In this document: piece after piece, positions 1-41,400 of the stretch
Position numbering within the stretch: the first letter of the stretch is position 1
Layout of the letters: each line of letters opens with the position of its first letter
Assembly: GCA_963693365.1 (NCBI GenBank)
Contig: CAVNZM010000007.1
Coordinates: forward strand, 8,677,962 to 8,741,961
Source: Amoebidium appalachense
Lineage: Eukaryota > Protista > Ichthyosporea
Reading direction: 5' to 3'
DNA: 64,000 nucleotides
The notes under the pieces: model-generated
What the model was told of the DNA's origin: nothing
What the model saw: the letters and a program-made list of their open reading frames with translations, nothing else
Database searches by the model: none
Made by a program: the position numbers and the translations under genes

Positions 1-3000
1 GCACTACTTGTTGCACCCCTGTGTTTTGATTGGTTTAGAGGACACCAATGATATCAGGAATGGCATGTGGAACAACAACAACAAACTTGCCTTTATGCCC
101 CGCCTATGCAATTAGTCACACTACTAACCGTTATGGGGCTTTTACCCCCCCCATCCCCCCCCCAAAGTCCTACTCTCCCCTTCCTTTTCCTATAGTTTCC
201 TTACCGATTTCACCCCGAAGTGTAGTATAATGAGGTACCAAGACAGATCAAAAGAAGGCAGAAAGCCAACGGAGGGGCTACAGGCCCCCCCGGGGGGAGG
301 GAGGGGGTGATACGGGGGGGGGGGGGGGGGGGAGGGCTCACCGATGGTTGAAGTTCCAGATGGTCATGTATTTAGCATTGTGGGGCATGTTGCTGGCAGA
401 CCCCCCGTTGCCGGTTAAAACCCCCCCAGTCAGGGAGTCCCACAGAATGTTGAAGGTGTGTCTGGCGTGAGAGTCTACACGCCCACCAATCTGAAACACG
501 TGGTGGGTGAGAGATGGACGGCACAGACATACATTGTGGAAACGTGAAAATTGATTTTAGGATCGCCCGCAAAATGGCAATCATGGCTCGTGTTGATGCG
601 GCATGTGTGTGTAATTGAAATAAATACCTCACTCCCAACTGTGGATGCCATGATATTACCTTCATGGGGGCATCAAGTACTCTTTGTCCATAAATGACCA
701 CGGGATAGGTTCCGGGAACTAGAGGGTTGAAGGGGGGGAGGGGGGGGGGGGAGGGAGAGAGAAAGGGGGGGGGGGGGGGGGGAGGGGGGGGGGTAATAGG
801 CAGAGCGTAGCATGGATTAGATACTGTCATTGTGAATGGATGGCCTGCCAGTCACAAACTCTGCTTAAAAGGGGGGGGGGGGGGGGGGGGAGAGGGAGAG
901 AAACAGGGTGAAGGAGAAAATGCGCAAATACCGGAATTGTGTTTCTTAGGGCGACCATATTAGTGTTTGAGGAGGCAGTGCTGGGGCCATGCCATTGGTC
1001 AGAGGTCACGTCCTGCACAAGCACCCCGTAGCCCCGCATGCTGTTGATGCCAAAGTGGCCCATCTTACCAGTCACACGCACATTCTGGATCTGGGGGGAT
1101 TGTGGAAAGCTAAGAATGCGTAGACGTTTGATGTGTTGATATGGAGGTTGCGCCTGTGTGTAACTTTGCATAAGGAAAACAAAGGACCTGGCGCGTAGGG
1201 GAAGGGGGGGGATGGGGAGGCGGGTACTCATATGGGAAAAGGGTCGGTGAAAAGTTTTCTGGGTTACATACATGATATATATCTACATAACATAATGGAT
1301 ATCCATCTACTGTCCCCTATAATCCCTTCTATATGTTTTACGCCCTAAGATGGGGTGACATAGTGCTTAAGCTGTGAGGTAGGCTGAGGCTTTGAGAGAA
1401 AACGGAAGTCAGGAGAAGAAGGTGGGGGGAGGGTGGAAGGTTGGGGGGAGGGGTTTCAGGGGGAGGCGGGGGGGGAGAGGGAGGGAGGGGGGAGGGGGAG
1501 AGACCGGGGGCCTCGGCGGGGGGGGGGGGGGGGGGGGGGGGGTATGGAGACTTACAGTGCATGCCATGGATGAGTCCAGCAGGACTGCTATGCTCACGCT
1601 GTCAAACACTACATCCCGCACCCAGCAGTTACGAGCACTCGTGAACCCCAGAGGGCACCAGCCCTGACACAAATCCAATTAGCATCGCCAGTGATTAAAA
1701 CTAAACTAAGTGGCACGAATATATGTACTTGAAATTTGATTGAGACATAGAGGAGAGGGGGGAGGGGGGGGGGGGGGGGGGGGGGGGGGGGACGGGCAAG
1801 AGAGAGGCAAAGGGGGGAGCAGGGGGGGGGAGGAGGGGGGGGGGGGGGGGGGGGGGGGGGGGGGGGATTGAAAAGCAGGTTATTGGTTTTCTAACCGCAT
1901 CGAGAAAAAAAAGAGAGAGGGAGACGACATGTTTGTGTTTGTGCCCGTGTGTGTGTGTGTGTGTGTGTGTGTGTGTGTGTGTGTGTGTGTGCATATGTTT
2001 TCTTTTTATCTTTGTTTTTTTGGTGGTGGTGTGTGTGTGTGTGGGGGGGGGGGGGGGGGGGGGAGGGGGGAGGAGGGGGTAAAAACAACAGCACATGACC
2101 CCCAAAAAGGAAATAATCAACCAATTTCCATTGGCCAGTGGACAGGTTAGGGCACCTACATAGTCATCCGTATCTGACGCATGGTGAGAGAATGACCCTG
2201 GTACATACTTCCACGCACCTGCAGAAAACACGTGTGGTTTAATGGGGGGGAGTTGGTGTGTGTGTGTTTGGGGGGGGGGGGGGGGGGGGGGGGGGGGGGG
2301 GGGAGGGGGGGGGGGGGGGGGGGGGGGGGGGGGGGGGGGGGGGGGGGGGACGGGTGAGGATGGAGTTTGGCGGGGGAGGGGAGGGGGGAGGGGGGAGGGA
2401 CGAGAGGGGGGGGATTATGAAACACCACAGTGAATTCGTGGGTGTTTGTTAATGGCTTTGTGTGATCTTGTGCTCAGATGTGAGGTGGAAGAAATATCCA
2501 TTGAGGCCTCAGGGGTGTGTGAATCATTGGAGACTAAACATGCAACATGCCATGCCGTGTGTTTGGGAAAAAAGGTCGGGTATAGTGCTTGAGTGTTAGG
2601 AAGCGTGTGGGGGGGGGGGGGGGGGGGGGGGGGGGGGGGGCGGGGGAAGAGAGGAGAAGGGGAGGGGGGGGGAAGGAGGGGGGGGGGGGGGGGGGAGGGG
2701 TTGCGGGCGGGGGGAGAGAAGGAGAGGAAGAGGGGGGGGGGAGGGCTGGGAAGGGAGGGGGAGGGGGGACGGGGGGAAGGGGGGCAAGGGGGAGGAGGGG
2801 GCTACGTACTTGTGATGGTCATAGCCTCGACACCAACCTCCTCCACAAACAGATAGGGGGCAACTGTGATGGTGTTGGCTGCACTCATAAACAGCTGTGT
2901 GTGTGTGTGAGGGGGGGGGGGGGGGGGGGGGGGGGGAGGGGGGGGGGGGGGGGGGGGGGGGGGGAGGGGGGAGAGGAGGGAGAGGGGGGGGGAGGGGGAG

Positions 3001-38400: not shown

Positions 38401-41400
38401 GTGTGTGTGTGTGTGTGTGAGTGTGTGTGTGTGTGTGTGTGTGTGTGTGTGTGTGTGTGTGGCGGGGGGGGAGGGGGGGGAGTGGGTAGGTGGTGGTGGT
38501 GGTGGGGGGGGGGGGGGGGGGGGGGGGGGGGGTGGGAGGGGGGGGAAAGGGAGGGGGGGGGGGGGGGGGGGGGGGGGGGATGCTTACAGCGACATCACAG
38601 TATGTTGAAGCATTGTTGGTACATCCCGGGTATTTGGTCTGGAAGGAGAGATTCATATTGGTGCGTAGTCGAAAGAGATGTTTTTTTGGGGGATGTGAGA
38701 GGGGAAGAAGAGGAGAGGGGGGGGGGGGGGGGGGAGGGGTGAGGGGGAGGGGGGGGGGGGGAGGGGAGAGGTAATAGGGGATAGGGGGAGGGGGGTTAGT
38801 CAGTGTGTGCAGTCAAGCAAACCCTTATCAATGGAGTGGCCGAACAGAGTGCGCCAGGTTCTGCAGCTGAGCCATTAACGGTGATTAGTATTTTTTCGCT
38901 TTTTTCTTCGCAGTTGCATGAATATAGTTGGTGTTTGTTGCATGATATTGCTGGGTGCAATACAGTCTAAAAAACCAAGAGCAAAGGAAACGGGCAGGTA
39001 AATAGGCGATGCATGAGGGGGGAGTGGGGGAGAGAGAGGGATGGGGGGGAGGGGGAGGGGAGAGAGGAGGGGGAGAGGGACGGGGGGAGATATGGGGTGT
39101 GGTGTAAGGGGGAATGGTGGGGGGCAGGAGGGAGGAGAGGTCTTACCACATCAAATATGGGACCGGCAACGCGTGGAATGGGCTTCTCGGAATAGGCATA
39201 GCCGGCACGGGAGAAGTCTGGCAACTGAATGGAGGGGAGTGGGGGGGGGGGGGGGGGGGGGGGGGACAGAGAGAGAGTGAGAGAGAGAGAGAGTGAGAGA
39301 GAGAGAGAGAGAGAGAGAGAGAGAGAGAGAGAGAGAGAGAGAGAGAGAGAGAGAGAGAGAGAGAGAGAGAGAGAGAGAGAGAGAGAGAGAGAGAAAGGAG
39401 GTTAGTTGGCTGTGTATGATGTTTGGAGGAGGGTAACCCACGGCAGAATCATGGGTTTCTTTCGAAACGGGTGGAGAGAGTGGTGGTGGTTCTTGGACAC
39501 TTGCATTAATCGATTAAGGCTGTATCCCACGGTAACCATGAATGACTTTAACTTTAAATTAAGGGAAAACCAGAACAGGTAAAAACAGAATGGGGAAGAC
39601 ATAACAGATTAAAACAGAATGGAAGGGGATACAATAGAATGGGGAAGATATAACGTAGAAAAACAGAACGGGTGGAGATACAATAGAATGGGGAAAATAT
39701 GGCCGAAAAAAACACACTGGGGAAGATACAACAGAGGAAAACAGAACAGGGGGAGATGCAACACATAAAAACTGAAGAGGGGAAGAAATACCGGAGAAAA
39801 AGAGAATAGGGGGAAATATAACAGAGAAAAAAAAGGAATAAGAAGGAGATATACCAGAGAAAAAAGAATGAGGGGGAGATATACCACAGGGGTGCGGCCA
39901 GCCATCTTGTCTCGGACGTATTCCTGCCACATCGGTGCAACCTGCGTGACTGTTGGAGAGCGTATGGGTATGTGTCGGCGGTTTTTTTTTTTTTTTTTGG
40001 GGGGGGGGGGGGGGGGGGGGGGGGGGGGAGGAAAGGTGGGGGTGCGGAGGGGAAGGGGAAGGGTGTGGGGGAGGGGCTGCAGGAGAGGGAATGATGGGTA
40101 TGTGTGTGTGTTTGCTTACTTGTGTGTAGGGTTACAGTATGCTATACACTGGACTAGATTGCAGAACTGCAGAATAATCACAAAAACTCTGCAGCACACG
40201 CATGGCTAAACCTCTGGTGGTGGCGGGGGAGTTGGAGGAATGGGGGTGGGGGACGTGGGGCCGGGGGGGGGGGGGGGGGGGGGGGGAGGGGGCACTAGGA
40301 AGAGAGGGTGGATTAGGATTCACTTACAAACACCTTTAAGCTCTCAATGAGGGATTCGGGATGTACACAGAGCAAGGGGGGCAAAAGGGGGTGGTGATGG
40401 TGGTGGGGGAGTGTGAGTGGGTGGGTTTGCAGTGGGGCAGGGGGAAAGGGAGGGGGAGAGGGGGAGGGGGAGGAGGGGGAGGAAAGGGGCAAGGGGCAGG
40501 TGATTTTCTTTTCGCTGGGGGGGGGGGGGGGGGGGGGGGGGACAGGGGGAAAGAGAGAGATCAGAGAATGAGAAGAGGGGATGGAGGGAGGGAGAGAAAG
40601 AGAGACGGGGAGAGAAGGAGCGTTGTCGGGAAGAGATAATGTAAGAGTTTGTGAGAGGGTGTGTGATTGAGGGAGAGAAGTGCAGAAAGAGCAAAAGAGA
40701 TAGAGAGGGGGGAAGAAGAGGGGGGGGGAAGGATAGAGAGAGAGAGAGAGAGAGAGAGAGAGAGAGCGGAAGGGTGTTTCTGTTTGAGTGCGTGTGTGTG
40801 TGTGTGTCTGTGCGTGTATGTTGTGTGTATGCACGTCGAGAGGCGGAACAGAAGCAAGACAGAGAGTCTTGGTGTGTGCACACGTACGTCCACATGCCCT
40901 TGTGTTGCATGGCTGGGTGGGTAATCCCCCCGTGCATCCTGCTGCTGGCTGGCCGTATGCATTAAAGCAGCCCCGGCGCCTGATGCCTCCCCCACACGAC
41001 ACACTGCAGTCTCCCCATGATGACCACTGGGTGGCTATAAATAGCAGCCAATCAATCGATCAGAATTTGTCCGTCGAGGCTTTTACCCACTGCGATCATG
41101 CAACACCGTTTCTCTTTCCATCCCCCCCCCCCCCCCCACCCACCCAAAAAAGAAAAAATGGGGTTTTTTTTTATTTTTATTTTTTTATTTTTATATATAT
41201 ATATAAAAAAACCACTTACCCCTCGGGGACTCCCTGTCCTCCACCTTTTCATCACATCTCATCTCGTTGGCATTTCCTCACCCCGACACACCCTCCTTTT
41301 GCCTAAGTTCTGCCCCAACAGACAGCTACTACCACTGCTGTTGAATTTGCAACTGGGAGATACGTCTAAGCAATAAGCCCCAGTTTATGGGTGGGGGGAT

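What the first reader, a model, noticed from the sequence alone, without database searches (positions are those of the whole stretch)
342..39949. Bacterial-type DUF4955/pectate_lyase_3 beta-helix domesticated as an intron-rich, secreted eukaryotic gene family
Seen: both paralogues carry LPDFS(Y/R)AGY, V(L/I)YFPPG, SNxVxRGAG, FxHH..DD, NCWxRDV, GH, HGP, DxH..GG..PH..WNF, and paralogue B also has the terminal PxSLFEAQLxxRL. Known (from recall): this motif series is typical of Bacteroidetes DUF4955 proteins, which are uncharacterised beta-helix putative glycan lyases/hydrolases. Here it is split over about 16 exons and fused to a signal peptide and PAN, TSP1, hevein-like and ricin-like modules. 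Inference: an old horizontal acquisition rebuilt into a secreted glycan-binding/degrading system, with conserved histidines as candidate catalytic or metal ligands.
Basis: partly seen in the sequence, partly recalled or inferred. Interest (0 to 1): 0.75.

Follow-up and report, generated by a model that had tools for sequence, protein, structure and literature searches.

The report
Bacterial PL29-type lyases rebuilt in ichthyosporeans
Two neighbouring, intron-rich genes, likely from an ichthyosporean (a single-celled relative of animals), carry a distant version of a bacterial enzyme that cuts chondroitin and hyaluronan, joined to animal-type adhesion modules; the enzyme was likely taken once from bacteria and is predicted to be secreted and to cut acidic sugar polymers outside the cell.

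Summary
Two minus-strand genes (A: 29 exons, 1094 aa, complete; B: 27 exons, 958 aa, cut by the window edge) have stop-free spliced frames and 54 of 54 GT-AG introns. Their cores are 48% identical and share all 14 comparable introns. DUF4955 passes Pfam's cut-off in both. The family is not uncharacterised: this core is the catalytic module of BT3328, the founding PL29 chondroitin/hyaluronan lyase. A and B are only 24-26% identical to it but keep its conserved histidines; their ichthyosporean relatives score 139-204 bits against NCBIfam's 1100 cut-off. Named eukaryotic homologues were all ichthyosporean (Amoebidium, Creolimax, Ichthyophonus). They form one clade (100/93) nested in bacteria, and no Bacteroidota are named in its sister group. 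PAN, TSP1 and a hevein-like module are supported; the ricin-like one is unconfirmed. Modules are joined mostly by phase-1 introns (20 of 24), the core rarely (1 of 16). Best reading: a secreted PL29-like lyase for a uronic-acid glycan. Activity, substrate and expression are untested. The scan's earlier notes hold nothing similar, and I found no paper on this family in ichthyosporeans.

The parts
20459..44318 (-). Gene A: 29 exons, 1094 aa; signal peptide - PAN - TSP1 - PL29-like core - PAN - TSP1 x2 - Cys-rich/ricin-like tail
   Evidence: Stop-free spliced frame; 25 of 28 junctions align without gaps to transcript-derived P0034
44243..44318 (-). Gene A exon 1, predicted signal peptide
   Evidence: Hydrophobic N-terminus, max 11-residue hydropathy 2.37; no dedicated predictor run
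42311..43230 (-). Gene A PAN module (exons 2-3)
   Evidence: PAN_1 27.3 bits, cut-off 21.4
40888..41034 (-). Gene A TSP1 module (exon 4)
   Evidence: TSP_1 32.6 bits
26953..39949 (-). Gene A PL29-like beta-helix core (exons 5-21, aa 153-672) with H434, H435, D441, H490, H512, D537, H539, D549, H569
   Evidence: Core profile E 2.6e-127; DUF4955 35.9 bits on exon 19; 23.8% to the BT3328-family protein, E 4e-22; conservation
25559..26139 (-). Gene A second PAN module (exons 22-23), absent from P0034
   Evidence: PAN_4 E 4e-4, below cut-off; gap against P0034
23817..24722 (-). Gene A two TSP1 modules (exons 24-25)
   Evidence: TSP_1 26.4 and 28.8 bits
20459..23255 (-). Gene A C-terminal Cys-rich region (exons 26-29); ricin-B-like only by recalled pattern
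   Evidence: Collinear with the P0034 C-terminus; no Pfam/PDB hit; model pLDDT under 50
342..15878 (-). Gene B: 27 exons, 958 aa, 3' end outside the window; signal peptide - 7 Cys repeats - hevein-like - PAN - TSP1 - core
   Evidence: Stop-free frame; 56% to P0034 over 597 aa; 18 of 26 junctions ungapped, being all 18 in the region that P0034 shares
15815..15878 (-). Gene B exon 1, predicted signal peptide
   Evidence: Hydrophobic N-terminus
11410..15064 (-). Seven one-exon repeats of 44-49 aa with six Cys (consensus CQxGxTxxPxxxxC), no known family
   Evidence: Alignment A3; no Pfam hit over cut-off; no PDB hit under E 0.1
10905..11090 (-). Degenerate hevein-like module; 4 Cys kept, both Trp of the match lost
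   Evidence: PDB 4ZXM E 2.5e-4 and 4Z8I E 1.4e-3
9803..10557 (-). Gene B PAN module (exons 10-11)
   Evidence: PAN_4 31.5 bits, PAN_1 29.1 bits
8742..8885 (-). Gene B TSP1 module (exon 12)
   Evidence: TSP_1 30.2 bits
342..8341 (-). Gene B PL29-like core (exons 13-27) with H812, H813, D819, H868, H890, H917; the His matching A H569 is Asn947
   Evidence: Core profile E 2.3e-115; DUF4955 29.4 bits; 25.5% to the BT3328-family protein

Best explanation
Genes A and B are spliced tandem paralogues that likely encode secreted PL29-like polysaccharide lyases, likely acquired once from bacteria by an early ichthyosporean and predicted to cut a uronic-acid-containing glycan outside the cell. Shown: gene structure, family identity, conserved residues and tree position. 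Inferred history: one transfer before the Amoebidium, Creolimax and Ichthyophonus lineages split; introns gained in the core before the A/B duplication; eukaryotic modules added by phase-1 exon shuffling. Inferred mechanism: the beta-helix binds the chain along one groove, where H434/H435, H490, H512 and H539 (A numbering) and D441/D537 neutralise the uronate carboxylate, with or without a metal, and remove the C5 proton, giving 4,5-unsaturated ends as BT3328 does. The PAN, TSP1 and Cys-rich modules would tether the enzyme to matrix or cell surface. The substrate is most likely an animal-surface or biofilm glycan, GAG-like but not necessarily sulfated chondroitin.
For: NCBIfam BT3328 family: locus L119 protein 1268 bits (cut-off 1100); all 5 ichthyosporean proteins tested match profile positions ~302-832 with E 2e-40 to 4e-60; 3 of 12 window exons hit it alone at E 3e-4 to 3e-3. 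L119 reproduces the published bt3324-bt3333 order, anchored by PDB 6S20 (192/192) and 2Q1F (PMC9067506 and PMC6994673, passages). H434, H490, H512 and H539 stand in 205, 207, 206 and 206 of 207 rows, and in 7 of 7 eukaryotic and 18 of 18 BT3328-clade rows. The model of P0011 is a beta-helix (mean pLDDT 80; best VIA Z 26.5). GH88, which acts on lyase products, lies near 35 of 73 bacterial homologues. Tree: 7 eukaryotic rows are one clade at 100/93, inside a bacterial clade at 100/99. Phase-1 introns: 20 of 24 outside the core, 1 of 16 inside A's core. A transcript-derived paralogue (P0034) has the same module order.
Against: No activity was measured. Identity to BT3328 is only 24-26%, and scores are far below the 1100-bit cut-off. 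The bacterial clade nearest the eukaryotes rarely has sulfatase (1 of 21) or PL8 (0 of 21) neighbours, against 25 and 17 of 52 elsewhere, so chondroitin sulfate is doubtful. Basic residues conserved in the BT3328 clade are not conserved in the eukaryotes. I found no published catalytic residues for PL29, so the His role is inferred, and groove placement comes from secondary structure only. The AU test rejects a non-nested position only weakly (p 0.042, group chosen after seeing the tree). FastTree puts P0014 apart from the other six. A fungal transcript annotated PL29 is reported (PMC13009009, passages). No RNA reads were laid on the window, so expression of A and B is not shown. Eukaryote sampling was limited.
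Confidence: 0.6

Rival explanations
1. The proteins are lyases that remodel the organism's own wall, holdfast or matrix (for example at spore or amoeba release), not an external food or host glycan.
For: Matrix-type TSP1/PAN modules; a membrane-anchored paralogue exists (P0011, hydrophobic stretch at about aa 572-603); choanoflagellates make chondroitin sulfate and carry PL8 lyases (bioRxiv 10.1101/211789, passages). A galactosamine-rich Amoebidium wall is recalled, not checked.
Against: Bacterial relatives sit in catabolic loci. Ichthyosporean secretomes are described as osmotrophic and enriched by transferred genes (PMC4739763, passages). No uronic-acid wall polymer was checked.
Confidence: 0.15
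2. The core has become a non-catalytic glycan-binding scaffold, and the proteins are adhesins for attachment to animal surfaces.
For: Many adhesive-type modules; 7 extra repeats in B; B lacks one His found in 174 of 207 rows; adhesin PfbA is among the fold matches.
Against: The four near-invariant His and the Asp residues are kept in 7 of 7 eukaryotic rows; P0137 (core alone) and P0011 (core plus membrane tail) lack the modules.
Confidence: 0.12
3. The eukaryote-containing subfamily does other chemistry than PL29 (metal-dependent hydrolase or epimerase), using the histidines as metal ligands.
For: Five or six His on one inferred face; fold neighbours include AlgE epimerases and GH28; a distant relative of lyase family PL9 proved to be a hydrolase, GH160 (PMC6442616, passages).
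Against: The same His set is in BT3328, a shown lyase (PMC9067506); GH88 lies near 10 of 21 near-clade loci.
Confidence: 0.08
4. The origin is more complex: two transfers (P0014 separate or a contaminant), or a wider patchy eukaryotic family.
For: FastTree splits P0014, which is 49% identical to bacterial P0089; fungal PL29 annotation (PMC13009009); 13 of 33 phmmer hits had no source look-up; Logan/ENA/JGI rows have no taxon; P0001 looks like an unplaced eukaryotic exon.
Against: The mixture-model tree holds all 7 together in 100% of 200 bootstrap trees; every EukProt row seen was ichthyosporean.
Confidence: 0.15

Closest known systems
PL29, founding member BT3328 (BtCDH) of Bacteroides thetaiotaomicron; NCBIfam NF058554; Pfam DUF4955
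   Same: Same ~500-residue catalytic module, aligned end to end (E 4e-22 and 2e-23); same His/Asp set; extracellular location (predicted here).
   Different: 24-26% identity; a different subclade; no ~300-aa DUF4988 spacer, no locus partners; spliced, with PAN/TSP1/Cys modules; conserved basic residues differ; activity not shown.
Bacterial genes transferred into the Creolimax/ichthyosporean secretome (de Mendoza et al. 2015, PMC4739763)
   Same: Bacterial origin, shared among ichthyosporeans, secreted; that paper reports 163 such genes, 71 shared with other ichthyosporeans.
   Different: Most of those are intronless (102 of 163); here there are 16 core introns and module fusion. This family was not found in the passages or the 3 supplements searched; the figure listing the genes could not be seen.
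PL8 GAG lyases of choanoflagellates, sponges and cnidarians (bioRxiv 10.1101/211789)
   Same: A bacterial-type GAG lyase in animal relatives.
   Different: Different family and fold; read there as ancient, while this one nests in bacteria and seems confined to ichthyosporeans.
Solved beta-helix enzymes: Geobacillus virus E2 ORF18 (7CHU), AlgE epimerase/lyases (8JA4, 2PYG), alginate lyase 6KFN, K1 capsule lyase (7W1C)
   Same: Right-handed beta-helix; VIA Z 22-26.5, rmsd 2.4-2.8 for the first four; 7W1C by Foldseek, E 7e-10.
   Different: 11-22% identity; the sequence profile matches little beyond the N-terminal cap. No solved structure of this family was found.

Membership tests
Pfam DUF4955 (PF16315) | Score over gathering cut-off 25 | tested here: met
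   35.9 and 29.4 bits on single exons of A and B
Pfam PF12708 (pectate-lyase-like cap) | Score over cut-off 27 | tested here: inconclusive
   No hit on single exons; closest paralogue P0034 16.1 bits; P0011 40.1, P0014 38.3, P0137 43.9, P0021 22.4; spliced A and B were not scanned
CAZy PL29 | Full-length homology to the BT3328 catalytic module | tested here: met
   BLAST over ~490-580 columns, E 4e-22 and 2e-23; profile of 5 BT3328-type proteins E 2.6e-35 and 1.6e-37
CAZy PL29 | Conserved polar residues shared with the BT3328 clade | tested here: met
   H434, H490, H512, H539, D549 and N577 in 7 of 7 and 18 of 18 rows; their catalytic role is not established
CAZy PL29 | Assignment by CAZy/dbCAN family model | not testable with these tools
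   No dbCAN library is held
CAZy PL29 | Endolytic beta-elimination on chondroitin sulfate or hyaluronan | not testable with these tools
   Needs an assay; neighbour context differs
NCBIfam BT_3328_fam equivalog (NF058554) | Whole-protein score over 1100 | tested here: not met
   Ichthyosporean relatives 139-204 bits; the model includes the N-terminal spacer that they lack
Right-handed beta-helix fold | Predicted fold matches solved beta-helices | tested here: met
   On paralogue P0011, not on A or B themselves
Horizontal transfer from bacteria | Eukaryotic rows nested inside bacterial diversity | tested here: met
   100/93 clade inside a 100/99 bacterial clade; AU p 0.042
Horizontal transfer from bacteria | Absent from other eukaryotes | tested here: inconclusive
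   Only ichthyosporean EukProt rows seen, but the searches were word-limited or used one exon; a fungal PL29 annotation exists (PMC13009009)
Horizontal transfer from bacteria | Integrated in the host genome, not contamination | tested here: met
   54 GT-AG introns, 14 shared between paralogues
Hevein-like chitin-binding module (CBM18) | Cys pattern and binding aromatics | tested here: inconclusive
   Match to amphioxus PGRP3 N-terminal module E 2.5e-4, but fewer Cys and both Trp lost; no Pfam hit. The hevein label for that module is recalled.
Ricin-B-like lectin module | Profile hit or beta-trefoil fold | tested here: inconclusive
   No hit; model unusable there
CAZy PL30 | Identity with founding member BcellWH2_02524 | not tested
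   Considered from size and locus description, dropped once the BT3328 match appeared; its sequence was not held

The most novel reading that the evidence does not exclude
Ichthyosporeans turned a bacterial PL29 lyase into a family of secreted, matrix-targeted GAG lyases by exon shuffling with TSP1/PAN modules. These would be the first functional eukaryotic PL29-type enzymes, define a new subfamily acting on a fucosylated or acetylated uronan, and help animal-associated relatives of animals feed on or attach to animal matrix.
Probability: 0.3. Interest if true: 0.7.

Novelty: new variant of a known kind. Interest (0 to 1): 0.5.

Why it matters
It links an unannotated Pfam family (DUF4955) to a characterised lyase family and extends that family into eukaryotes. 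It is a clear worked case of domestication: intron gain before duplication, then phase-1 module shuffling. It gives a testable enzyme for how ichthyosporeans, mostly animal-associated, deal with acidic glycans, and candidate catalytic residues for PL29, for which I found no solved structure. The general process (bacterial glycan enzymes entering protist secretomes) is well known, which limits the surprise.

Tried and rejected
No whole genome is held. Splicing and expression of A and B were not checked on reads. Two guessed-RNA runs held 0.18 and 0.09 of the words of window 32100-37100; unlaid small shares are no evidence. First model of A's 3' end (exon 23645-23586, one long exon from 21788) was rejected after alignment to P0034. 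A word-based search with one exon found nothing. PL30 was considered and dropped. PL43 was recalled as a candidate; no entry titled fucoidan lyase appeared, which does not exclude it. Viral route: 2 short chance-like matches and 3 distant copies at 20-28% give no support. The metagenome scan for the sister clade gave 2 short contigs. The Atlas was unavailable. Folding P0035 to test the ricin-like tail failed (mean pLDDT 46). The CBM21 protein was not in the collection, so no species marker was obtained. The original PL29 paper (Ndeh 2018) is not held. Literature searches with no hit: DUF4955, PF16315 (22), Ichthyosporea + horizontal gene transfer + polysaccharide lyase (75), PL29 + polysaccharide lyase + protist (134). 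Ichthyosporean + chondroitin + lyase gave 2 papers (121); I read passages of one (PL8 in choanoflagellates) and saw only the listing of the other.
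Full report
Gene structure. A six-frame search found the anchor motifs on the minus strand. I read the strand with repeats masked, listed splice sites and built two models. Gene A has 29 exons from 44318 to 20459 and gives 1094 aa with one terminal stop (after correcting its 3' end). Gene B has 27 exons from 15878 to 342, gives 958 aa without a stop, and leaves the window. 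All 54 of 54 introns are GT-AG. The cores are 199/416 identical and share all 14 comparable introns in position and phase. Independent support comes from P0034, a transcript-derived Amoebidium paralogue: 25 of 28 junctions of A and 18 of 26 of B align without gaps; the misses fall where P0034 lacks the module. No reads were laid on the window, so expression of A and B themselves is not shown.

Modules. Pfam on 45 exons and 2 other frames gave DUF4955 over cut-off in both genes, PAN over cut-off on 2 of 3 PAN exons hit, and TSP_1 on 4 of 4. B exon 9 matches amphioxus peptidoglycan recognition protein 3 (E 2.5e-4), so 'hevein-like' is fair but degenerate. The ricin-like tail is collinear with P0034 but has no family or PDB hit and did not fold. 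B has seven 6-Cys repeats of no known family. Both proteins begin with a hydrophobic stretch; no signal-peptide predictor was run. Introns outside the core are phase 1 in 20 of 24 cases, inside A's core in 1 of 16. That is the pattern of class 1-1 exon shuffling known from secreted animal proteins (recalled).

Who has it. phmmer with one exon over 1.84 billion representatives gave 33 hits. Sources were seen for 20 of them; 4 are EukProt proteins, from Amoebidium parasiticum (3) and Creolimax fragrantissima (1). Three of the 13 unchecked had no BLAST match to A or B. Two word-based searches gave 34 and 77 proteins, with 1 and 2 EukProt rows, adding Ichthyophonus hoferi. The window's organism is therefore likely an ichthyosporean close to Amoebidium (B is 56% identical to P0034); this is an inference. 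In one genus sample, 46 of 201 genomes passed the Pfam cut-off.

Origin. From 202 cores I picked 58 by hand for a mixture-model tree. The 7 eukaryotic rows form one clade (100/93), next to five metagenomic rows (93/89, not starred), inside a 30-row clade (100/99) that is otherwise bacterial or metagenomic. Forcing the 44 ingroup non-eukaryote rows together lowers the log-likelihood by 16 (p-AU 0.042); this is borderline, and the group was chosen after seeing the tree. FastTree separates P0014. The donor is unresolved: the nearest row has a weak MYXO-CTERM tail (16 bits, cut-off 20), and a Vicinamibacteria protein falls in that clade.

What the family is. Bacterial neighbours, clustered by BLAST and labelled by Pfam on representatives, were GH88 in 35 of 73 loci, sulfatases in 26, PL8 in 17 and GH29 in 15. 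Flanks were at most 10 kb, often cut, and no background control was run. In locus L119 the DUF4955 gene lies three frames from a PL8 that matches 2Q1F, and is followed by two binding proteins, SusD, SusC and a sulfatase identical to 6S20 over 192 of 192 residues. This is the published bt3324-bt3333 order, in which BT3328 is the founding PL29 enzyme, an endolytic chondroitin sulfate/hyaluronan lyase with a ~300-residue N-terminal spacer (PMC9067506, PMC6994673 and PMC7793863; passages). NCBIfam confirms it: 1268 bits on the BT3328 family. Five ichthyosporean proteins match the same model over its catalytic part at 139-204 bits, far below the 1100 cut-off. A and B are 23.8% and 25.5% identical to the L119 protein. 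They are PL29-like by homology, not members of the BT3328 equivalog; CAZy assignment could not be tested.

Mechanism. The model of paralogue P0011 (mean pLDDT 80) is a right-handed beta-helix. Its best matches are phage and bacterial glycan enzymes at 11-22% identity. H434, H490, H512 and H539 of A stand in 205-207 of 207 rows and in all 18 BT3328-clade rows; H435, D441, D/E537, D549 and N577 are nearly as conserved. I commit to beta-elimination with His as base and carboxylate neutraliser; a metal is open. The substrate is less sure. Among 21 loci of the bacterial clade nearest the eukaryotes, GH88 occurs in 10, GH29 in 9, sulfatase in 1 and PL8 in 0, against 25, 6, 25 and 17 of 52 elsewhere. 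These loci are related, so the Fisher p-values overstate the contrast. It points to a fucosylated, little-sulfated uronan as the donor's target; the eukaryotic target may have shifted.

Comparison and novelty. Bacterial genes in ichthyosporean secretomes are known (PMC4739763; passages and 3 supplements searched; the figure listing them was not visible). PL8 GAG lyases are known in choanoflagellates (bioRxiv 10.1101/211789, passages). A non-secreted, uncharacterised PL29-annotated transcript is reported in a fungus (PMC13009009, passages). I found no paper on DUF4955 or on PL29 in ichthyosporeans or protists; subscription papers and the original PL29 paper were out of reach. Other papers seen in passages only: PMC6442616 with its supplement, bioRxiv 2026.05.19.726164 (77), PMC12877422, bioRxiv 2026.10.07.757250 (90), PMC13113925, PMC11286789, PMC11244446; supplements of the preprints could not be seen. 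The scan's own notes hold nothing on this genome or sequence; one search showed analogous transfers in other eukaryotes, unchecked, which suggest the process is common.

Verdict. A real, well-supported case of domestication of a PL29-like lyase: new variant of a known kind, interest 0.5; confidence in the full best explanation 0.6.

Noticed in passing
window 24897-24971 and 25212-25286 (-): Two identical tRNA-Ile(AAT) genes inside the intron between exons 23 and 24 of gene A, on the same strand; a third, internally shortened copy lies between them (seen).
   Followed up: partly
window 57830-59059 (-): Intronless 409-codon frame with CBM21 (90 bits) and a KVLF motif; looks like a glycogen-targeting phosphatase-1 subunit (recalled).
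   Followed up: partly
window 61366-64000 (+): A 403-codon frame followed by a frame from 62528 with an endonuclease-like start; resembles a non-LTR retroelement by eye. Pfam gave nothing at E 0.001.
   Followed up: partly
window 11410-15064 (-): Seven 6-Cys one-exon repeats of no known family; pairs 5/6 and 7/8 are near-identical, so duplication is recent.
   Followed up: partly
window, introns of both genes: Introns carry long C runs and CA/TC microsatellites, up to 184 bases.
   Followed up: no
window ~38050-37900, ~31920-31790, ~42150-42050 (-): A ~130-base element starting GTGGATGAC recurs in three introns of gene A (seen); possibly a short dispersed repeat.
   Followed up: no
P0021 (Creolimax), P0011 and P0014 (Amoebidium): Other paralogues carry different additions: a weak B-lectin match (E 0.0017), a C-terminal membrane segment, and an unassigned C-terminal domain.
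   Followed up: partly
L013, L017, L025, L035: Soil Bacteroidota loci combine the DUF4955 gene with GH29, GH88, chondroitinase-B-like lyases, a PF05426 lyase and GH31 (acetylesterases in L025 and L035), with no sulfatase found: an unassigned locus for a fucosylated uronan.
   Followed up: partly
L039:9878-13006, L042:10016-13075, P0116: Bacterial fusions of the DUF4955 core with a chondroitinase-B-like lyase domain.
   Followed up: no
L124-L126: Three large viral contigs carry a distant (20-28%) homologue of the core.
   Followed up: partly
window 55823-56353 (+): A frame ending in a Met-led hydrophobic stretch, possibly the first exon of a membrane-protein gene.
   Followed up: no
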